DNA of 64,000 nucleotides, taken from contig NW_027191454.1 of NCBI RefSeq assembly GCF_011745625.1, forward strand, positions 372,001 through 436,000, written 5' to 3'. Of the stretch, positions 44,804-55,850 are shown piece after piece (position 1 is the stretch's first letter; the number at the start of each line of letters is the position of its first letter). The position numbers and the translations under genes were made by a program. The stretch is from Cladosporium halotolerans (Eukaryota). The notes under the pieces were generated by a model. It searched no databases, had not been told where the DNA came from, and was given only the letters and a program-made list of their open reading frames with translations.

Positions 44804-47129
44804 TCAGTCACCCAACGGCATGCCCTCCACCCCGTCAACCAGACCCCTCCAGCAGTCAGCCTGAAGCTCTGCGTACTTCACACGCTCCTGCGCCCACTCC
44901 TGGTGCGCTCTCGAGATGCGCCAGATCGTACTCTGGAAGAAGACGATCTCGTCGCGCACACACTCCTTAATGAACACGCCACGAGCATGCTGATTGACAA
45001 TCGATTGCTTGTCCTGAGGCGAATCGTTAGTAATCGCTCCTCATCAAGCAAGAGCACCACTTCAAGAAAACTCACATTCACAATCGAATTCTCCACCTTC
45101 TCCGCCTCACCCGGCTTCGCCGCATCGCCCTTCGCCTTGATCCCCTGCAACTTGTTCTCGCTCTGCAGAATCCTCTTCTCCAGCTGTGGGATATTGTCCC
45201 TCGCCAAACGATCCTTGCGATCGAACAGATCCCTCAAACTCACCAGCCCGTCACGAACGCTCTTCAAATCCTCCAGCACACCTTCGTCCCACGCCCTGCC
45301 TTCGTCCTCGAGCAAGCTCTGGCTGGTACCCAGGTGCTTCGCGGTCGCCTTGATGCCCTCGTTCAGCAGCGGCACGTCGTTCTGGTCGATCGCAAAGGCG
45401 TCGTTCGTCGTCTCCGTGATGGACGTCAAGTTCATGCCGAAGCGACCGTACTCGGCCGCGATGGCCTCCTTGCGCTTGCACAGGCGCTCGACGAGGTTGC
45501 AGAGATTGATGTAGAGGTCTGCGGAGCGGCGCACGCCAGAGCGCACGGTGTCGAAGGTGTCCTGCAGGTTCTGCGGCAGGGAGTCTTCGAGCGAGGGCGG
45601 CAGCGAGCGGCCGATGAATTCTTCCTGCACGGAGATGGTGGCTTGTTTGCGCCAGACGGCGAGTTCCTGCGAGGGTTGTTAGTTACGCTGATGCTTGAGC
45701 GAGGGGTGTTTGGTGGGCGTGCTTCTACCGTCGGGACTGTTAGGAACATGACGACGAGCTGCTCTTCGCGGAGCACGGGGTGGCGGACGAGCGCGTTGGC
45801 GAAGCGGACGAGGCCTCGGCGGCGCTTTTCGATGAAGAGGCTGTCTGCAGCGATGTGGTTGCCATTGATGGCCATCCGTTTAGGCGGCAGTAGGGGCAGC
45901 TGGCGGAAAGGATAGCGTTTGTGCAGGCAGTCGAGCAGCCAGACGAAGTCAGAGTACCGACGAATCACTTTCGAGTTCCGCCTGACAGACGCGACTTCGT
46001 AATTGCGATGTTGGAACAGGAACATGCCCTCCTTCTCCTCGAGCATAGCAATCGTAATGACTTCCTCCACGCCCTTGGGAACCGTGACCCGCGGCCCAGC
46101 AGCTCGCTGAACATTGTGCGCTCCCCCATTACCCTCGCCAAACCCATCGCCCTCCTCAGGCGTCGTCCCAAACCCACCGCTCCCTCCAGCAGCAGTATAC
46201 GCATTACTCGCTCCCCACGACGAGCCCGCCTCGCTGACCCCAGTCTGCTGGCTCGCATACCCCCCACCCCCATTCCCTGCCCCATTCCCCTGCGCCGTGC
46301 TCGAAAACGCACTCGTCGTCCTCATCGCCGGCGCAGGCGCCTGCGCCACAGCAGCCCCATTAGCATGCGCATGGCCGCGATGCATCTCCGGGCTCGCCCA
46401 AGGATCGCTCTCCCCAAACCCAAAGCTCGGCTTCCTGCCAGCACCCCGTTCCCTAGCCGGCGAGCGCTGCGCGCCCTGCTGTTGCTGCACCGGCGTCACC
46501 GGCCTCTCCTCCTGCCGCCTCTGCTCAGCCTCCACCTCCTTCTTCGCCCCCAGCCCCTCCAACGCCGGCGGCAACTCCGGCAACCGCCCCCTCCTCTCAT
46601 CAACAGCATCCAGCCCCACCTCCTCGCCCTCCCTCGCCAGCCCCACCAGCGCAAACAGCACCCAGCACTGCCCCCTCCCAAGCACCCTACTCTCCCCGCC
46701 GCCGCTCACAACGCTCCAAATCCTCTCCCCGACCTCCGCCCTAACCCCGCTCCCCTCAATCACAACCCGCCTCGCCTCCGCCTCCTCAACACCATTCCGC
46801 CCCGCCGCCAGCGCGTCCCAGGCCTCCACGTAGGACTCCGGCACCTCGGCGTCGGACAGCAGCGCGCGCACGACGGACGCGCCGGAGCGGTGCGTGGGCT
46901 TGCGCGGCGTGAAGGCCGCCCAGGGCGAGGAGGCGTCGTCGTCGCCGTCGGCGGCGGCGGCGGCGGCGGCTTGGGGGTCGTCGTCGCCGAACATGGAGGA
47001 GGAGGGCGGGGGTTTGGAGGCGGCGCCGTTGGAGGTGCCGTTCGTGGGCGCGGAGGAGTCGTCGAAGAGGGAGGATTTGGCGCCGCTGCGGGAGGGCGGG
47101 CCGGCGTAGTCGTCGCCGAAGAGGGACAT
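44804..47129 (-). CDS. MVP1: sorting nexin Mvp1 (PX-BAR), 3 exons
   Basis: MSLFG start; PX domain EKEGMFLFQHRNYEV..RRYSDFVWLLDCLHKRYPFRQLPLLPPKR; BAR region DRLARDNIPQLEKRI; C-terminus QERVKYAELQAD..GMPLGD*. Confidence 0.93.
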
Positions 47130-48164
47130 TGGGGTGGTTTTTTGTTTTTGTACTGGAGGTTCGTTTCGAGCTGGTCGGGGTTATAGGTGGGTGGGGGGGA
47201 TAGGAGCGTGGCGGGAGAGTTGTGGTGCTGTGGGTTGGTGGTAGCGGTGGGTGGGAGCTATCTCGAAGTAGCTGCGGCCGACAATCGCCGGGGCGTGTAT
47301 TAGGGACGTCGTTGGAGGATGCGAGTACAATTAGATCGATTAAGGGGAAATGTCAAGACGACGCTCGCTCGCTCGCTCGTCGTCGTCGCGCGATAGCAGA
47401 GCACAAGCAAGCAGGTGAAGCTGGGATGGCCGGCTGGCTATCGGCAAGCTCTCTCGCGCCTCGCCCCCGGTCGTCACGACATGCTTCCAAGGCCCAAGCC
47501 ACGCGATGACGGCCCGCGCTCGGACGCTTTCGTTGCGGCTGCGCGCTTGCTTGACGATTGGGCCTCGGCCGTTGAGCGAACGTCATTGCATTGGTGTTTG
47601 ACTTGAGACGCTTTGTGTACTTGTGTACTTCGAGACTACTGCGATACGTGTACGTACAGTCTTCAGATGGCAGTTTGAAATTTCGCTATATTCTCAACAT
47701 CTCTGTGCAGTAGAGAACAGCATATAGCGAGGAGGTACCGTATGTACAGTTCGAAACCCATCCCGACACCCAGCTCCTTTTTATCGCATGACTGGTTTCC
47801 CCATGTTGCAACCGAACCAGCCCTCCCTCCCAAGTCCTGACATTGGAAAAGTTACTCCCTCTCTTTGTAAAAGCAAAAACGATGAAACCCCCGAGCCGCC
47901 CTGATAACCCTGCTACTCTTCTGTGGAGCGGGATATGCCGATGTTGCAAAAATGCTCCGCCAGCGCCAACGCTAAATCAAATAAAAATCAAAGCTTCAAA
48001 ACGAAATCGGTGTGTAACGCCGTTTGAAGGCCGGTGTTTTGTACAAGTGGACCAAAGGTGCAAAGGTAGAAGATGGTGTGAAGATCGTCGAAAAGTCGTA
48101 AAAGCTGTTGCTGGCCAATGGGCGTCAACTTGAGTTGAAGCTTGCCAACGAGTTAAAAGACCGC

Positions 48165-50693
48165 TCACTGCGGTGTCCTTCTGGCAGGTGGTGTTGTGGA
48201 ATTGCGCAGCGGAGAGCTAACAGATACTGCAGATTCTGCAGGACCCCGCTCAGCATGCGCTTCAGTATTGCCGCTTCTTTCTACCAGCGAGTGAGCAGGC
48301 GGTGTGGTTGTCATTGTTCTCAGCGGCGAACGTCTCGGCGCGGGCACGATGATCGTACCGCCAGAGTCTGCGGAAGGGCTGATGTCGTCAGCTCGAGGTG
48401 GCGGATCATGCTGTCTGGAGAAACTGCCGCGCGAGATTGGAGCGGGCCTACGAGGCGTTGGTATCGTACTTGGGGATGCGGATGCACCGCCTGCTCTCAG
48501 ATCGTCCACGCGTGGGCTGGCAGAATCGCGGCTTGCCGCTTCTGCAGCGGGCATGCTGTTCTGTGTGAGAGTCGTGGAATTGCTGATATCAGCCTGAGTG
48601 GGCTCATCTCCAGAGGGGAGTGCGCCGGCGGCTGCGGGGCTATCACGTTGACGATGCTGCCGCGATTGCTGTTGCTGCTGTTGTATCAGAACCTCTGGGC
48701 TCCACGTGCGATTGCTCCCGCGGGGCTGTGCAGGGATGATGGTGACAGGCATATCGGCATCTTGACCTCTTCCAGAATTGCGGTCCCGGAAACGTTCGCC
48801 GGTTTCTGCGGCAAGAACGCCCAATCTATTCTTGATGTCCCACTTCGAGAAATTGTGTGCCGGGGTCATAGTACGAGGCAACCCGGCTTCAGCTTTGTCT
48901 CGTGCTTTTTGCACTTCAGCCGGAGGCGATGCTCGCTTACGTTTGAAGGGATTCGAGACAGAGTGCCACCTGCCATGCTGGCTGCGGTCACGGGTGGGGT
49001 GAGGATCGTCTGCGGATTCATCGTCCTCCTCTTTCTCCGGGTCTTTCAGCGTCGAGGCCCTATGATCCCCGTTGTCAATTACGTTCCCTTCCGCATCGAC
49101 ATTCCGCCGAATAGGCTGAGGGGCATTGCCTCCGTCGTCGTATCGCACGACGTACACGGTGCTTGCGGCGCTCGTGGTCTCCGTTCGGCTTACTGGGCTA
49201 GCGACGGCAGGTGGCGGTGTAATTCCATTGTCTCGGTTTCGCTGGCCTCGTCGCCTGGGGAGACGTCCGAAAGTTATTGTGCCGCTGCCAGCAGTGCCAG
49301 TATGGCTGCTATCTGTGGGTGCTTCGGTTTGGTGACTGCGTGCTCGACCAAGCGGAAAATGCTTGGGTGCGGGTGCCACAGGTTTTCGAAATCGAGCGCC
49401 GAATCCATGTAGACCTTTCTCCATCGCGCTGGTGTGGTCGCCTCCATTGTGATCGTCGTCTCCGCCGCCACGGCGGCCTCCATTTCGTAATTTCGCCAGA
49501 CCTCGTCGTCCAGAATTCCAGACTAGTTCGTTGCTAGGTGTGATGTCCAGCATTTCGTCGCCATCGAAGATTTCCCGGCCCAAAATTCCATCTTTCTTGT
49601 CGTCGCTTTCTATGGCTTCTATTCGTTCGACCCATTCCCAAACAATGACACTGGCAGCTGCAGCTCCAACCCAGCGGAAATAGTCGCCCCAGCCTGCAAC
49701 ATCCGAATTTGAGACGTCGGTGACGAAGAAAACGACCGGCGTAAGGACCGCCACAAATGACAGTAGCGCTATTAACGTTATACTCCGCATTTTCGGGTGG
49801 TAGAAGGCGTATCGTCGTTTCGTCAGGGAGTAGTAGATAACCCAAGCAGCGTAGAGTAAGCCGAGCGCCAGTTCAAACAAATAGGACAGAGCGGGTATCG
49901 CGTCCACAAAGTTCCGAGGTCTGACAGTGCCGAGGGTCATGTTGATGTAGAAAGAGTTTAGACATGAAAATGTCGTGTCGCAAACGATCAGCGCGAAACC
50001 GATCCACTTGATTAGGACCTTTTCCTTGTGTCGTGGAAAGAGTCGTATCAGTGTCTGTACTTGAGCCAGCCAGAGGAAGATGTCTGAGATGACGCGCGTG
50101 ATCCTGATTTCCATAGAGCCCATGACGTCCTGCCGCATGGTATTGGCATCCATAAAGCCCCGTTCGTATTGTCTTTCCAGAGATTTGAAGGTGTCCGCGG
50201 TCGCGATGGTGAGAGAAACGGCCACGGTGAAAGCGGCCACTTTCTGCAGCCAGGGCCGCGAGCCGACTCCGAGTGTACTGCCTCCACCGTTCGCGCCTCC
50301 AATAATACCATGCTTGCCACCGAGGCCGGGTTGCGACACTGGGCTGCCGAAGAAACTCGTCCGAGGGGTGATGATAAGCATGAAGACCAGGATCCACGCG
50401 ATCACCGTCGCCGCGGCGATCACGTATGTCTGAGGTGTGGTTGAGGCGTAGAAGGGGTCTTTCCAGTCCGCGATCACGCTCGAATATCCTTCGTTGTAGT
50501 CGCCAGCGCCGCCGGTGCACGCCGGCTGGAAGACGACACTGGTGGTGAGGGTTATGACACTGTCGGCCATGGAGATGACGCCGTTGGCGGGCAGGGGAAA
50601 GGGCGTGCAGAAGGGCGTCGACGAGGGCGCGGCCGAGGTGGGAGGATTCCATAGTTGGCGCTTCGAGGGCGCATAGCCGGGAGAGGGTGACAT
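48165..50693 (-). CDS. palH: ambient pH sensor PalH/Rim21 (7-TM plus long disordered tail)
   Basis: DPFYAST, RPWLQK, FLWLAQVQTLIRLFPRHKEK and VWEWVERIE..KDGILGREIFD; likely start MSPSPG at 50693. Confidence 0.93.
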   Translation of the reverse strand: MSPSPGYAPSKRQLWNPPTSAAPSSTPFCTPFPLPANGVISMADSVITLTTSVVFQPACTGGAGDYNEGYSSVIADWKDPFYASTTPQTYVIAAATVIAWILVFMLIITPRTSFFGSPVSQPGLGGKHGIIGGANGGGSTLGVGSRPWLQKVAAFTVAVSLTIATADTFKSLERQYERGFMDANTMRQDVMGSMEIRITRVISDIFLWLAQVQTLIRLFPRHKEKVLIKWIGFALIVCDTTFSCLNSFYINMTLGTVRPRNFVDAIPALSYLFELALGLLYAAWVIYYSLTKRRYAFYHPKMRSITLIALLSFVAVLTPVVFFVTDVSNSDVAGWGDYFRWVGAAAASVIVWEWVERIEAIESDDKKDGILGREIFDGDEMLDITPSNELVWNSGRRGLAKLRNGGRRGGGDDDHNGGDHTSAMEKGLHGFGARFRKPVAPAPKHFPLGRARSHQTEAPTDSSHTGTAGSGTITFGRLPRRRGQRNRDNGITPPPAVASPVSRTETTSAASTVYVVRYDDGGNAPQPIRRNVDAEGNVIDNGDHRASTLKDPEKEEDDESADDPHPTRDRSQHGRWHSVSNPFKRKRASPPAEVQKARDKAEAGLPRTMTPAHNFSKWDIKNRLGVLAAETGERFRDRNSGRGQDADMPVTIIPAQPRGSNRTWSPEVLIQQQQQQSRQHRQRDSPAAAGALPSGDEPTQADISNSTTLTQNSMPAAEAASRDSASPRVDDLRAGGASASPSTIPTPRRPAPISRGSFSRQHDPPPRADDISPSADSGGTIIVPAPRRSPLRTMTTTPPAHSLVERSGNTEAHAERGPAESAVSVSSPLRNSTTPPARRTPQ

Positions 50694-51678
50694 GGCATCT
50701 GAAGTCGCCGTCTGGTGGCGGGCGCGCTCGAGGGTGTGTGGGCGCCGTCGGGCAGGCGCAGCGATCAGGGCGGGCGCATACGAGACGGTCGCATGTGTCG
50801 AGACGGAGGGCGATGAGGGTGTCGACGCGTGTGGCCAGGCAGATGCTAGCGTGCGGAGTGGTTGCGGGTGCGGGCGCGGTGTTGAGCAGGACGGCGGAGA
50901 CACTTGGGGTGGCCTGGCGGTGGTGTGGGCTCGGGCGGTGCGAGGCGTCGAGCGGCGTGAGGCAAGCGGCGCTCAGACGCAGTCGCTGCGGGCGCAGGCG
51001 ATCCTTGGATGGCGGTGCCAAGTCCAGCTGGCAGCCCGCTAAGATGGTGCCTCAGGTGCTTACAGGCTGGGGGGTCGCCTTGGCCGGTCGGGGGCGGGCA
51101 GGGAGGGCAGGGATGGCACGGCTGCCTCTCTGCGGACGTTGTTGCGTGCTGGCGAGTGTTGCGCAACCATCCTGCTGCGACGGCAGCCTGGCCTGGCGAG
51201 TGTTTCGTCCGGAGCGGTTGGCCTCAGGCGCGCGCACATCCCTTCCGCCCCGGGCGCAGGCTTCAGCGGGCGGGAGTCTAAGCGAAAGAAGCAGCGCTGG
51301 TGCCCACGTGCGGCCATCCCCTCCTCCCTCCGACTCCCGCCGGTCGCTCGCCGGCCAGACTCACGAATGCAGCTGTCCAGCGACACGGCTCGAGCGCGCC
51401 TTTCCTTCCCCGCAAGCTCGCCCGCAGGCTAACAAACTTCCGCGGCTGCCTGCCTCTTTCGGTCCACGGGATATCAGATGCGGCCTTACCTACCTAGGTT
51501 CTCAGATCATCCAGCTCGACATCACATTATTCAGCCGTACTGACGTGATCACGTATCGCTCCATATACTGCGCCTTACATACATTCGACAAGCTAAATCG
51601 ATTCCATACACAATCCTACAAAAACCATGATTCCCACTTACCATCTGGTCTATCATCAAGTAAAATAATCAAACCGCC

Positions 51679-52743
51679 ATGGCCAGCTCCAACCTCAAGA
51701 CCTTGCATCCGTGGCTTCAGGAGAACGACACCAAGTTGTCGTCGGGCGGCACACTCAAAAGCTACAGCCACGACAATGGTTCCGACCCCATCTTCTGCAT
51801 CGTCCATGGCTATCCCCAGTCGAGCTATATGTAAATACAGACCTGTCCAACCCCCCAAAACCACATCCACCAACGCTAACACCGACATCCCAGGTGGCGC
51901 CACGTAAGAACCCCAATCCCGAACACCCACCACAACCACTAAACCTCCCGTCCCCACCAGGTCCTCCCAGCCTGGAAACCCCACGCCTCCCTCTTCATCC
52001 CCGAACTCCCCGGCTACGGCCTCAGCTCCCTCCCCCCGGACCCCTCCAAGCGCGCCATCGCCCACCAAATCCTCTCCGCCCTGCAAACCGTCCTCCCCAC
52101 CTCCCCCGCCCGCCCCATCTACTGGATCGCGCACGACCGCGGCGCCCGCATCGGCCACCGCCTGCTCACCTCCCCCTCACCGCCCCCCAACCTCCGCGCC
52201 GCAGTCCTCATGGACATCGTCCCCACGCTGGCCCAGTGGCGCGCCTTCGCCAACCCCGCCGCCGCGACCGCCTACTTCCACTGGCCCTTCCTCGCGACCG
52301 CCAGCGCGCCGGACGCCATCGAGGGCATGGGCGGCGCCGCTTTCTGCCGCATGATCCTGGCCCGCGGACGCGGCGGCAACGCGCTCGGCGCGCAGAGGAT
52401 CGACGCGGACGACGCGTACGCGCACTATGCGTCTATCTTTGACGGGCGGGATGCGATTCGCGGCAGCTGCGCGGATTACGCCGAGGGCAGCGTGCCGGAG
52501 TGCGAGGCGCAGGAGGCGGAGCAGAGGGCTGGGAGGAAGGTTGGGTTGCCGGTGCTGGTGGTTTATTCGGAGGGGTCGTTGGGGCGGATGCATGATGTCG
52601 AGGGCGTTTGGAGGGAGTGGGTTGAGGAGGGAAAGGTGGAGTTACTTGGGGTGGGGAACGGGCATGGGCATTATTTGCCGGAGAGCGCGGACGGGGTTGT
52701 TGCGGAGGGGGTGCTTGGTTTTGTGAGGAAGCATAGTGGATAG
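51679..52743 (+). CDS. alpha/beta hydrolase, fluoroacetate dehalogenase / epoxide hydrolase family; exons 51679-51830, 51894-51903, 51961-52743
   Basis: Spliced product has HGYPQ..MWRH, PELPGYG, HDRGAR, MDIVPT, YFHWPF, CADY and GHYLPE. Confidence 0.88.
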
Positions 52744-52892
52744 GGGGCAGAGGAGCTGGGAAGAGGCGCTTCACGATGAATTACGATTAACGTTGTCTTT
52801 GTACAAAGTCCACGCCGCGCGATGCGTATGACGAGCGCGCTGGAATAAAAAAAAATCAAACCACCTCTCCAAGGGTATAAGGTACCATCCCC

Positions 52893-54617
52893 TCAAATCT
52901 TCGAAACATACCCCGTGTCGCAAACCGGCGCCGCCCACCCCACACTCCACCTCACGCTCCCCATGATAACCACAACCAACGCACACCCACACGCCAGACT
53001 CGCCAGCGCATACGCATACGCGCTCCGCATCCTCAACCCCCTGATCTCCGCCACCCACGTGCTGACCGTCGTCAAGCACCCGCAGAACCCGTCCTGCACG
53101 CCCTGCAGCACCTGGCACCCCACCAGCCCGCCGCCCACCATGCCGTTGACGCCGACGCCCACGTGCTGGATGTCGTAGCACATGGCCTCGATGGCGACGC
53201 CGAACATGTTCGCCGCGAACGTGCCGAGCGGGAACGAGGGCACGAGGGCGTTGAGTTTGTTGGACGCGTAGAAGCGTAGCAGGCAGCCGGCGGGCGCGAA
53301 GAGGATGGGGAAGACGGCGACGCCGCGCCAGGTTTCGGCGGCGCTGCCGCTGCTGGTGGTGCGGTCTGGGGGGAAGATGGCGAGGAAGAGCGCGCCGAGC
53401 CAGCAGCCGAAGCCGAGCAGGACCATGGCTGGGTCGAGGATGCGGCGCGTGAAGCGCGAGGGGATGCGGGGTGTTATGGGGTTGAGGGCGAGGGCGACGT
53501 GGGCGCCGACGATGAGGGAGCCGAGGGAGAGGGCGAGGGTGGCCAGGATTATGGCCAGGATGGCGGCGAGGGAGTAGCCGCCGTTGCGGGAGACTGTGGC
53601 GGTTGTGGTGATGGTGCCTGTGGAGGGGTGGTTGACGGGTGCAGGGAGGTCGTTGGAGAGGGCAAGGAAGACGTCGCGCATGAAGGAGCTGAATGATGTG
53701 AAGGATCCGCAGAAGCCGGTGGCCAGGCCGACGTAGAGAGGGATCGTCTTTTTGACTTTTGCACGTTCGGCGGCGGCCACGCCTTCACCTGCCCCAGGGT
53801 CTTCTCCTTCGTGTTTCTTCTCCGTTTGTGGTCGTCGTCTTGGCTCCCACTCATCTCTAAACATCTGCCTGTCCTCTGCGAGAAAGCCCATAAGAAAGGA
53901 ACCGCCGACGTTTGCCCATATTACGGGAGTCACCACGGGGGTCCCAGGGTAGAATGCAATCCATTGAACACCAAGGCGCGCTAGAGTGCCGAATATCGAA
54001 AAGAAAATCAGATGCGACACAGTGTACAGAAGCGACAGCCAGTCTGCAGGACGCGCGGGCAATGGCTCCTTGTGCAGATAGTCCGCGGCTGAACGCGACG
54101 CAAAGGGTAAAGGCGATTCCTGTGGCTCTCTTTCAGGCTCGCCGGGTAGCAGATTCTGTCGCTGTGCGGATTCAAGGTCGGTATTTCCAGGTTGTGATGC
54201 CACAGGCGGAGGAACAACGTTCTCCGTCAGATTCTGGCCTTGCGCGGCCTGTCCATTGCCACCGCTCTGCCTCTGAAAGGAAGCGTTTCGACTGAAGTTG
54301 GGGACATCTCGTCTGTTCGGAGTGCTTGAGCCGCCAGAGCCATTGTTGTACAACTTGGGAATTGGTGGTAGCGCTGTTGTATCCTGGGTGAGCCTCCAGG
54401 AACTCGTCTTGGGTTCCTGGTAACTTGCGCGCAGAGGTCGGGCCTTCACAGTCGATTCGCTTGCAATGCTTTCAGAAGGCGAGCGCCGCTGCTCAAAATT
54501 GCTGTGTCGTCTCGGAATAGTCTCAGCAACCCAAACGCCTTCGGAGACGCCATTGTCCGGATCATGGACCAAGCTCCGGGCCTCCAATCCAGGAAATGAG
54601 CGCTCACGCCTCTCCAT
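52893..54617 (-). CDS. FEX1: FEX-type fluoride exporter (two Fluc/CrcB domains)
   Basis: IFGTLARLG, ANVGGSFLMG, GFCGSFTSFSSF, LLRFY, GTFAANMFG and GFCGCLTTVSTW. Confidence 0.92.
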   Translation of the reverse strand: MERRERSFPGLEARSLVHDPDNGVSEGVWVAETIPRRHSNFEQRRSPSESIASESTVKARPLRASYQEPKTSSWRLTQDTTALPPIPKLYNNGSGGSSTPNRRDVPNFSRNASFQRQSGGNGQAAQGQNLTENVVPPPVASQPGNTDLESAQRQNLLPGEPEREPQESPLPFASRSAADYLHKEPLPARPADWLSLLYTVSHLIFFSIFGTLARLGVQWIAFYPGTPVVTPVIWANVGGSFLMGFLAEDRQMFRDEWEPRRRPQTEKKHEGEDPGAGEGVAAAERAKVKKTIPLYVGLATGFCGSFTSFSSFMRDVFLALSNDLPAPVNHPSTGTITTTATVSRNGGYSLAAILAIILATLALSLGSLIVGAHVALALNPITPRIPSRFTRRILDPAMVLLGFGCWLGALFLAIFPPDRTTSSGSAAETWRGVAVFPILFAPAGCLLRFYASNKLNALVPSFPLGTFAANMFGVAIEAMCYDIQHVGVGVNGMVGGGLVGCQVLQGVQDGFCGCLTTVSTWVAEIRGLRMRSAYAYALASLACGCALVVVIMGSVRWSVGWAAPVCDTGYVSKI

Positions 54618-55086
54618 CGTCGCAGTCGTCGTCGCTAGTCGCAGAACAACATGGCGGGCCTGACACGCGTATGCAGGGCTGGGCTTCAGGTGTGTTGAAG
54701 AAGTCTATGACACGCGACGGACCGGACTGGAAAGGGATGATCATGGTGGTGTGCCGGACTACTGGCCGTTGGAACGTTTCTCTAGCCTTTTGCTCCGCCG
54801 AAAGTCGATTCCGGGTCCGGCGCGCCCAAACAAACCGGTGGCTGAAGACGAAGCCGATCTGCAAGGCGCTGCACGGTTCGTTCCGGAGCCCGCCGCAGCC
54901 AACCCCACTCGTCATGCTCACATGCGTCGCCTATCTGGCGCATGTGCACCTTATCAGGGCAAACATTATTGATGCGACGTTGGCCTCCACGTAGCAACAA
55001 ACTGAGAGTCACGTTTGTGGTTTAAAAGCGTCCTACCTTCGATCATCCAAAGTTTAGCAACAACCAACACTGTAACTGTCGTTATC

Positions 55087-55850
55087 ATGGCCACCTCCGT
55101 CTCCAATGTCCACGTATCTAAACACCCATGCCTCCGGGCGAAGCTGAGCCTCTTGCGCTCCAAAGCCACCAATGCGAGAGATACCAAGCAGCTTGTGCAT
55201 GAGATCGCCACCATTGTCGGCTGCGAAGCTCTAGCTCAGGGACTCAAGACCACCGAGACGGGCAAGGTACGCATCCTTGTGTTTATCCGCAGCAATGTTG
55301 TCACCTCCCCATGTCCAGCCTTACTGATATCGTGTTGCTTATTCAATAGAGCGTGACACCTCTCGGATATGAATACACAACAGAAAGCATAGGCCCCGGC
55401 TCAGTTTGCCTGGTCCCCATCCTCCGCTCCGGTCTCTCCATGGTCGACGCCTTACAGTCTCTCCTCCCAGAGCCCGTCCCCATCCACCACCTGGGCATGT
55501 ACCGGGAGAAGACGACGCTGGACCCCGTGGAGTACTACAACAACCTACCCTATCACAAAGCCGGCGACCAGTCCAAAATCCCCGAGCTGGCCATCGTCGT
55601 GGATCCGATCATCGCGACGGGTTCGACCGTGTGCGCGGCGATAGAGACGCTACGGGACTGGGGCGTGCCTCGGATTATCGCGATTTCTGTGCTGGCGAGT
55701 GAGGGTGGTCTGCAGAAGGCTGCTGCTGCTTGGCCTGAGGGGGTGGACCTGTGGGTTGGGGCTGTTGATGCTGGGACGGATGATAATGGCATGATTAAGC
55801 CTGGCGTGGGCGACATTGGTGATAGGCTGTTCTTGACTGTCGGGAAATGA
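55087..55850 (+). CDS. uracil phosphoribosyltransferase; intron 55267-55349
   Basis: HPCLRAKLSLLRS, LVPILRSGLSM, PRPP-binding VDPIIATGST and GMIKPGVGDIGDRLF. Confidence 0.93.

What the first reader, a model, noticed from the sequence alone, without database searches (positions are those of the whole stretch)
51679..54617. Fluoroacetate-dehalogenase-like enzyme paired tail-to-tail with a FEX fluoride exporter
Seen: stop codons are about 150 bp apart. The hydrolase has the nucleophile Asp with two Args (HDRGAR), the acid Asp (DIVPT), His-Trp (YFHW), Tyr (CADY) and the base His (GHYLPE). Known: these match the catalytic, carboxylate-binding and His/Trp/Tyr halide-pocket motifs of bacterial fluoroacetate dehalogenases, which release fluoride; FEX/Fluc proteins export fluoride. 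Inference: a fungal defluorination-plus-export module. Caveat: many family members with these motifs do not defluorinate, and FEX is widespread in fungi.
Basis: partly seen in the sequence, partly recalled or inferred. Interest (0 to 1): 0.72.

Follow-up and report, generated by a model that had tools for sequence, protein, structure and literature searches.

The report
Fungal dehalogenase-like gene beside fluoride channel
A mould carries an intact relative of the bacterial enzymes that strip fluorine from fluoroacetate right next to its ordinary fluoride-export channel; the enzyme is untested and worth assaying, but the pairing looks like an inherited gene neighbourhood rather than a dedicated detox module.

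Summary
A three-exon, 315-aa alpha/beta hydrolase (both introns seen spliced in a close relative's RNA contigs) ends 149 bp from a two-domain FEX channel; each gave one locus in this Cladosporium-like genome. All eight fluoroacetate dehalogenase (FAcD) active-site residues are present and kept in 109 of 110 scorable homologues; the model's best matches are solved FAcDs (Z 29). The module reading is weak. By locus tags and accessions, hydrolase and FEX are adjacent in 4 of 14 related genomes, while hydrolase and its other neighbour, the pH sensor PalH/RIM21, are adjacent in 10 of 14 (within ten genes: 10 versus 12). No FEX lies near the hydrolase in 13 fungal metagenome loci with 2 kb or more downstream, where its neighbours are changing housekeeping genes. 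The FlK thioesterase of real bacterial fluoroacetate clusters was not found. Best reading: an old, vertically inherited fungal FAcD-family hydrolase, probably able to hydrolyse haloacetates in vitro (about 0.6), natural substrate unproven, in a loosely conserved PalH-hydrolase-FEX block. A selected defluorination-plus-export module is not excluded (about 0.15). Its subclade lacks the gate tryptophan (RPA1163 W185), hinting at a roomier pocket.

The parts
51679..52743 (+). FAcD-family alpha/beta hydrolase, 315 aa, exons 51679-51830, 51894-51903, 51961-52743. D113 nucleophile, R114/R117 carboxylate clamp, D139 acid, H161/W162/Y227 halide pocket, H291 base; Gly at the position of the RPA1163 gate W185.
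51831..51893 (+). Intron 1, 63 bp, GT-AG
   Evidence: spliced form in X1 loose ends
51904..51960 (+). Intron 2, 57 bp, GT-AG
   Evidence: spliced form in X1 loose ends
52744..52892 (.). 149-bp convergent intergenic stretch holding both 3' ends
   Evidence: one X1 contig runs across it (51961-54712), which shows no single transcript
52893..54617 (-). FEX fluoride channel, 574 aa, single exon, long polar N-terminus and two CRCB domains; motifs TSFSSF 307, PLGTFAAN 463, TTVSTWVAE 516, YALAS 536
48165..50693 (-). PalH/RIM21 ambient-pH sensor, 842 aa, head to head with the hydrolase; the more tightly conserved neighbour (control)
55087..55850 (+). Uracil phosphoribosyltransferase, head to head with FEX (469 bp between the starts), one 83-bp intron; context only
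45435..47180 (-). PX-domain sorting nexin (MVP1-like) exon beyond PalH; part of the same inherited block
   Evidence: L010; merged MVP1/PalH model next to the hydrolase in Fulvia fulva

Best explanation
Two ordinary, independently working genes in an inherited block. The hydrolase belongs to an old fungal clade of the FAcD family. Shown: intact gene, spliced in a close relative, eight active-site residues, FAcD fold. Inferred mechanism, from RPA1163 and DehH1: R114/R117 clamp the carboxylate of a small 2-substituted acid, D113 displaces the leaving group by SN2 to give a covalent ester, H161/W162/Y227 hold the leaving halide, and H291 with D139 activates water to release the 2-hydroxy acid. 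I put in-vitro fluoride release from fluoroacetate at about 0.6 and fluoroacetate as the natural substrate at about 0.2; a chlorinated or bulkier 2-substituted acid is at least as likely, since the subclade lacks the gate Trp. FEX is the housekeeping fluoride channel. It would remove any fluoride that the enzyme makes wherever its gene lay. The two came side by side once in an ancestor of the Cladosporium/Mycosphaerellales-like group, inside an MVP1-PalH-hydrolase-FEX block that local inversions have since reshuffled.
For: Residues: 8 of 8 align with DehH1 D105, R106, R109, D129, H150, W151, Y213, H272; 109 of 110 homologues with all eight columns filled keep all eight (120 aligned). Fold: pLDDT 93.5 (exon-3 part only); rank 1 Daro3835 Z 29.1, rmsd 1.7 A over 241 residues. 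Vertical history: all 52 fungal-type rows form one side of a branch (SH-aLRT 100, quick tree) and the window groups with Cladosporium fusiforme inside a 20-row Cladosporium/Mycosphaerellales-like set at 99. Linkage: adjacent to FEX in 4 of 14 genomes, to PalH in 10 of 14; discordant 1 vs 7, sign test p 0.07, genomes not independent. PalH sits between the two in Teratosphaeria nubilosa and Hortaea. PalH is head to head with the hydrolase in Aureobasidium-like loci L012 and L017; L013 and L017 have 10 kb downstream without FEX. Elsewhere the neighbours are SOF1 (L021, L025, L027), an NSUN2-type methyltransferase (L018, L019), MYST/Cef1 (L007), kinesin/amidase (L016). Dothideomycete gene order is shuffled by intrachromosomal inversions with leftover blocks (PMC3516569, passages and section 9). 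FEX is the general eukaryotic fluoride exporter (PMC5417652 abstract and section 5; PMC11139923 passages).
Against: Proximity is well kept at the loose level: hydrolase and FEX within ten genes in 10 of 14 genomes (PalH 12 of 14) and 13 of 17 with FEX mapped; Acrodontium and Pseudocercospora musae keep hydrolase near FEX but have PalH on another contig. A Cladosporium-like locus, L004, has 5.4 kb upstream without PalH. Conserved blocks are few in this group (58 in Mycosphaerellaceae) and the authors argue that long-kept blocks are selected. Only one control pair was tested, and head-to-head pairs tend to outlast tail-to-tail pairs (recalled). Real FAcD-crcB clusters exist in bacteria. Gene distances are read from tag or accession numbers, not from DNA. 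No activity data.
Confidence: 0.7

Rival explanations
1. A selected defluorination-plus-export module: the enzyme detoxifies fluoroacetate or a related organofluorine, and linkage to FEX is kept because the product, fluoride, is toxic.
For: Both genes intact and one locus each; eight residues conserved; within ten genes in 13 of 17 genomes, adjacent in 5 of 17 across distant genera: Cladosporium, Saxophila, Fulvia, Acrodontium, Zasmidium; bacterial precedent on pUO1 and in Caballeronia S22; fungi are reported to defluorinate fluoroacetate (PMC5485738 passages).
Against: Adjacency less conserved than hydrolase-PalH (4 vs 10 of 14); convergent orientation; no FEX in 13 of 13 fungal loci with 2 kb or more downstream, 6 of them with over 8 kb on both sides; no FlK match in the genome, 2 candidates scored, and no such gene among the neighbours; a fluoride channel is rare beside bacterial family members too, 1 of 136 loci.
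Confidence: 0.15
2. The enzyme is not a dehalogenase in practice: the FAcD-type site is kept for another hydrolysis of a carboxylate-bearing substrate (for example an epoxy-acid or activated ester), and the FEX neighbour is irrelevant. This changes only the enzyme part of the best explanation.
For: About 30% identity to DehH1 (84 of 282) and a long branch to bacterial members; near-equal fold scores to proteins deposited as putative epoxide hydrolase (4B9A, Z 27.8) and putative acyltransferase (4NVR, Z 28.7); kept across many fungi from habitats where fluoroacetate is unlikely to be common (inference from names); gate Trp absent in 0 of 116 scorable close homologues having it.
Against: All eight residues used in the literature to define FAcD are kept; the two best sequence matches, Daro3835 and Alr0039/NOS0089, are active defluorinases (PMC11022551 passages); W185 can be replaced, even by Gly, in active RPA1163 variants (PMC13328661 passages); 75 of 117 scorable bacterial loci also lack that Trp.
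Confidence: 0.35
3. The selected unit is the three-gene PalH-hydrolase-FEX block: a pH sensor, the hydrolase and the fluoride channel are kept together for co-regulation, since fluoride toxicity depends on external pH.
For: All three lie within three or four consecutive genes in C. fusiforme, Saxophila, Fulvia, Polychaeton, T. nubilosa and Hortaea, 6 of 14, in two different orders of genes. pH dependence of fluoride uptake is recalled, not from a call.
Against: The unrelated MVP1 gene travels with the block too; the block is split in Acrodontium, Recurvomyces, Oleoguttula and P. musae; not found among the Mycosphaerellaceae blocks of PMC3516569 by six protein ids (supplement files 1-12 of 29 searched; ids may differ between catalogues).
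Confidence: 0.07

Closest known systems
Bacterial fluoroacetate dehalogenases of the alpha/beta-hydrolase fold (EC 3.8.1.3): Daro3835 (8SDC), Alr0039/NOS0089 (3QYJ), RPA1163 (3R3U), FAc-DEX FA1 (1Y37), DehH1 of pUO1
   Same: Fold (Z 27-29, rmsd 1.7-2.1 A), Asp-His-Asp triad, two Arg, His/Trp/Tyr pocket.
   Different: 26-33% identity; eukaryotic gene with two introns; separate fungal clade; Gly and Ile at the W185 and K181 gate positions by the HMMER alignment; no activity data.
Bacterial fluoroacetate resistance clusters (pUO1; Caballeronia sp. S22 replicon g)
   Same: An FAcD gene close to a Fluc-family fluoride channel.
   Different: Those are co-oriented clusters on mobile plasmids with a methyltransferase and FlK-type thioesterase; here a convergent pair among housekeeping genes, no FlK match, linkage not tighter than a neighbour's.
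Fungal FEX fluoride channels (S. cerevisiae Fex1 type)
   Same: Two fused CRCB domains and all four conserved pore-II motifs.
   Different: Nothing notable; 60-78% identical to orthologues in the region searched.
Fungal proteins already labelled 'Fluoroacetate dehalogenase' in NCBI (Lecanosticta, Teratosphaeria destructans, Pseudocercospora fuligena, Fulvia fulva)
   Same: Orthologues at 47-51% identity where listed.
   Different: Labels are as the sources wrote them; I found no paper testing any of them.

Membership tests
FAcD (alpha/beta-hydrolase fluoroacetate dehalogenase) | alpha/beta-hydrolase core with helical cap | tested here: met
   Model of residues 56-315 matches FAcD structures at Z 27-29; PF00561 E 1.5e-5, just under the curated cut-off for this partial query.
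FAcD | Catalytic triad Asp-His-Asp (RPA1163 D110, H280, D134) | tested here: met
   D113, H291, D139 align with DehH1 D105, H272, D129 and with 3R3U.
FAcD | Carboxylate clamp of two Arg (R111, R114) | tested here: met
   R114, R117.
FAcD | Halide pocket His, Trp, Tyr (H155, W156, Y219) | tested here: met
   H161, W162, Y227; residue set taken.
FAcD | Gate Trp lining the tunnel (W185); typical of characterised members, not essential | tested here: not met
   Gly in the window; no Trp at +24 to +34 from the pocket Trp in 116 of 116 scorable close homologues; present in 42 of 117 bacterial loci; replaceable in RPA1163.
FAcD | Hydrolytic release of fluoride from fluoroacetate | not testable with these tools
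   Needs an enzyme assay.
FEX fluoride channel | Two fused Fluc/CRCB domains | tested here: met
   Two PF02537 stretches, E 2.6e-31.
FEX fluoride channel | Motifs ooFooX, ooXooF/W with Glu, PxGTxxxN, YxxxS/T | tested here: met
   All four found, definitions from PMC5417652 section 5.
Fluoroacetate detoxification cluster (bacterial type) | FAcD gene next to a fluoride exporter | tested here: met
   149 bp apart.
Fluoroacetate detoxification cluster (bacterial type) | FlK thioesterase and methyltransferase partners in the cluster | tested here: not met
   Neighbours are PalH, UPRT, a DEAH helicase, a PX protein; no PF22636 match in the genome, which may be incomplete.
Selected fungal gene cluster | Linkage better conserved than that of neighbouring pairs | tested here: not met
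   Adjacent 4 of 14 vs 10 of 14; within three genes 7 vs 11; within ten genes 10 vs 12 (counted from the same table). One control pair only.
Selected fungal gene cluster | Co-regulation by the substrate | not testable with these tools
   Only assembled contigs were available.

The most novel reading that the evidence does not exclude
The hydrolase is a true fungal fluoroacetate dehalogenase, the first from a eukaryote tied to a gene, with a naturally open gate that accepts bulkier 2-fluoro acids, and its long-kept closeness to FEX in Cladosporium and Mycosphaerellales-type fungi is a eukaryotic counterpart, reached independently, of the bacterial FAcD-crcB clusters.
Probability: 0.15. Interest if true: 0.75.

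Novelty: new member of a known kind. Interest (0 to 1): 0.35.

Why it matters
Fungi have been reported to defluorinate fluoroacetate since 1981, with no gene assigned in the review I read (PMC5485738), and current FAcD mining is bacterial (2,150 bacterial sequences). A diverse, intact fungal FAcD-family clade (59 of 129 rows) is a ready set of candidates for C-F cleavage, and its gate-less subclade resembles engineered RPA1163 variants that act on larger substrates. If the linkage were selected it would be a new eukaryotic detox cluster; the comparative evidence here makes that unlikely.

Tried and rejected
Recent horizontal transfer from bacteria: rejected; two introns, one fungal clade on a long branch, no close bacterial hit (best 35% in GTDB). 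An ancient transfer was not tested (no outgroup root). Hydrolase-FEX fusion: the 11 longer relatives scanned carry no CRCB domain; longer length classes were not searched. Second, dedicated FEX copy: both CRCB matches in the own genome are the two halves of this gene. RNA contigs of X9 cover PalH and FEX, and X6 only FEX, but not the hydrolase: a part without cover, no weight given. The X1 contig across both genes shows no single transcript. Rachicladosporium was dropped before the 14-genome tally: its three tags are all far apart (01818, 08155, 09474) and come from multi-member clusters. Genomes with only one pair mapped were kept out of the paired tally: hydrolase-FEX Zasmidium 1, Baudoinia 2-3, Dothistroma 3; hydrolase-PalH T. 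destructans 1, LTR85 1, Salinomyces 1, Peltaster 1, P. fijiensis 1, LTR08 71, P. fuligena 92 by accession. NCBIfam has no match for the hydrolase. The careful tree did not finish; quick IQ-TREE and FastTree trees only, half of the GTDB loci and L037-L083 left out. Chan et al. 2010, the screen that would give a base rate for inactive look-alikes, is not held; that many look-alikes are inactive is recalled. Earlier findings of this scan: none returned. No complex prediction was run: no binding claim.
Full report
Observation. The region holds a + strand hydrolase in three exons (51679-51830, 51894-51903, 51961-52743; 315 aa; GT-AG introns of 63 and 57 bp) and a single-exon - strand FEX (54617-52893; 574 aa), with 149 bp between the stops. 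Contigs of run X1, from a close relative at 95-99% identity, have loose ends that read across both predicted junctions and also splice the UPRT intron, so the gene model is right and the gene is transcribed in that relative (4 of 24 listed runs were laid). Nearest named relatives of the hydrolase, FEX and PalH are from Cladosporium (68%, 78%, 88% to C. fusiforme). Each gene gave one locus in the own genome of 27.9 Mb.

The enzyme. Of 22 PDB sequences matched, the best are Daro3835 (E 5.7e-30), Alr0039 and RPA1163. The literature defines the FAcD site by eight residues, D110, R111, R114, D134, H155, W156, Y219, H280 in RPA1163 (PMC13403318 and bioRxiv 10.64898/2026.10.11.758284, passages). The window's D113, R114, R117, D139, H161, W162, Y227 and H291 align with D105, R106, R109, D129, H150, W151, Y213 and H272 of the 294-aa hydrolase of plasmid pUO1, whose length and D105/H272 numbering match DehH1 as given in PMC11022551 and PMC6100074 (passages). 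Of 120 homologues aligned, 110 have all eight columns filled and 109 keep all eight. An AlphaFold2 model of the exon-3 part (260 aa, pLDDT 93.5) matches Daro3835 at Z 29.1, rmsd 1.7 A over 241 residues; the 50 rows shown lie between Z 27.4 and 29.1 and include proteins deposited as putative epoxide hydrolase and putative acyltransferase, so the fold does not decide the activity. Daro3835 and NOS0089 are active on fluoro- and difluoroacetate. One difference: the gate pair K181-W185 of RPA1163 (PMC13328661 passages) aligns with Ile and Gly. No Trp lies in that stretch in 116 of 116 scorable close homologues, against 6 of 22 fungal loci and 42 of 117 bacterial loci. In a FastTree tree of 129 rows the window falls in a 29-row subclade (support 92) with no gate Trp, while 24 of the other 30 rows of the fungal-type clade have it. 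W185G variants of RPA1163 are active and better on a bulky substrate, so this hints at a roomier pocket and does not argue against catalysis.

History. All 52 fungal-type rows form one side of a long branch (SH-aLRT 100) against 49 bacterial rows, and the window nests with Cladosporium and Mycosphaerellales-type proteins (99); Aureobasidium, Elsinoe and Sphaceloma form another group (quick tree, midpoint root). The best bacterial matches are at most 35% identical and come from many phyla. ESM Atlas look-alikes are Ascomycota clusters first, a haloacetate dehalogenase cluster at rank 10. So this is an old, mostly vertically inherited fungal family, already labelled fluoroacetate dehalogenase in some NCBI records. 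I found no paper that characterises a fungal member or the pairing in six searches (listings only); the library lacks most subscription journals. A review reports fluoroacetate-degrading activity in Fusarium, Aspergillus and Penicillium with the gene not determined for F. solani (PMC5485738 passages); none of these genera is named among the 120 hits listed.

The channel. FEX has two CRCB domains and the four motifs that PMC5417652 (abstract, section 5) finds in all FEX proteins. It is an ordinary FEX, the first-line fluoride defence of fungi (PMC11139923 passages).

The linkage. I used locus tags and consecutive accession numbers as a proxy for gene order, for hydrolase, FEX and, as control, PalH, the hydrolase's other neighbour. 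Distances hydrolase-FEX / hydrolase-PalH: C. fusiforme 1/1, Saxophila 1/1, Fulvia 1/1, Acrodontium 1/other contig, Polychaeton 3/1, T. nubilosa 2/1, Hortaea 2/1, Lecanosticta 8/3, Recurvomyces other contig/1, Meristemomyces LTR62 44/1, Oleoguttula other contig/1, NU459 10/1, P. eumusae 12/9, P. musae 7/other contig. Adjacent: 4 of 14 against 10 of 14; within three genes 7 against 11; discordant 1 against 7, p 0.07 with non-independent genomes; within ten genes 10 against 12. With Zasmidium (1), Baudoinia (2-3) and Dothistroma (3), hydrolase and FEX are within ten genes in 13 of 17. Rachicladosporium was dropped as uninformative. The sample is limited to genomes that appear in the top 120 hits of the searches. 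In 26 fungal-type metagenome loci, 13 have 2 kb or more downstream of the hydrolase and none holds a FEX, by tblastn or by a FEX profile that did detect the pUO1 crcB; L012 and L013 encode the same protein. The two Cladosporium-like loci end at the gene. PalH is head to head with the hydrolase in L012 and L017, an MVP1-like gene is next to it in L010, and PalH is missing upstream in L004. In other lineages the neighbours are different, locally stable housekeeping genes. This is the pattern of an inherited block reshuffled by inversions, as described for Dothideomycetes (PMC3516569 passages and section 9). The same paper notes that long-kept blocks are few and may be selected, which keeps a functional reading alive; the block was not found in its supplement files 1-12 of 29 by six protein ids, and file 9 has no domain names to search (17 files not searched, four .doc files unreadable).

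Comparison with true modules. On pUO1 the order is methyltransferase, thioesterase, dehH1, an insertion sequence, crcB, LysR, all but the last two elements co-oriented; Caballeronia S22 has the same set (PMC11812338 passages). The fungal locus has only the enzyme and the channel, convergent, and no FlK match in the genome. Among 136 bacterial or presumed bacterial loci of the family, with flanks of varying length, only pUO1 showed a Fluc gene (CLC-F exporters not tested), so family membership does not imply such a module.

Verdict. Observation confirmed; family assignments supported; module not supported but not excluded (0.15). Best explanation (0.7): an uncharacterised fungal FAcD-family hydrolase and the housekeeping FEX in an inherited PalH-hydrolase-FEX block. 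In-vitro defluorination about 0.6, fluoroacetate as natural substrate about 0.2; these odds are my judgement. New member of a known kind; interest 0.35, resting on the untested fungal enzyme clade more than on the pairing. PMC11223199 was also read in passages and added only that conserved residues were used to predict activity in Delftia enzymes.

Noticed in passing
window 48165-52743; L012, L017: PalH/RIM21 and the hydrolase are a head-to-head pair kept from Cladosporium to Aureobasidium-like fungi (adjacent in 10 of 14 genomes plus 5 of 7 more); RNA contigs of X1 end at 50907 and begin at 51313, so a shared promoter of a few hundred bases is possible.
   Followed up: partly
tree: P0073, P0086, P0110, P0118, P0105, L007, L020: Sordariales-type proteins (Podospora, Immersiella, Cercophora, Lasiosphaeria) nest with Exophiala-like proteins at support 99, against the expected species tree; possible fungus-to-fungus transfer or hidden paralogy.
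   Followed up: no
tree: The gate Trp (RPA1163 W185) is absent from a whole 29-row fungal subclade and present in 24 of the other 30 fungal-type rows: one apparent loss.
   Followed up: partly
The hydrolase diverges faster than FEX in 5 of 5 genomes compared (46-68% vs 62-78% identity) while keeping its eight site residues.
   Followed up: no
P0546 (608 aa): An FAcD-family domain joined to a beta carbonic anhydrase domain; may be a merged gene model. P0447 (544 aa) has an unassigned 267-aa N-terminal extension.
   Followed up: no
P0309 (Fulvia fulva, 1433 aa): A database model that merges PalH and the MVP1 sorting nexin, which are separate neighbours in this window; probably an annotation error that shows the conserved order.
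   Followed up: no
L021, L025, L027; L018, L019: In two deeper fungal subclades the hydrolase has its own stable neighbour: SOF1 in three loci, an NSUN2-type tRNA methyltransferase in two.
   Followed up: partly
L164:7075-8430 (plasmid pUO1): An IS481 element sits between dehH1 and crcB, and the annotated crcB is short (98 aa), recalling the frameshift extension noted for the S22 crcB.
   Followed up: no
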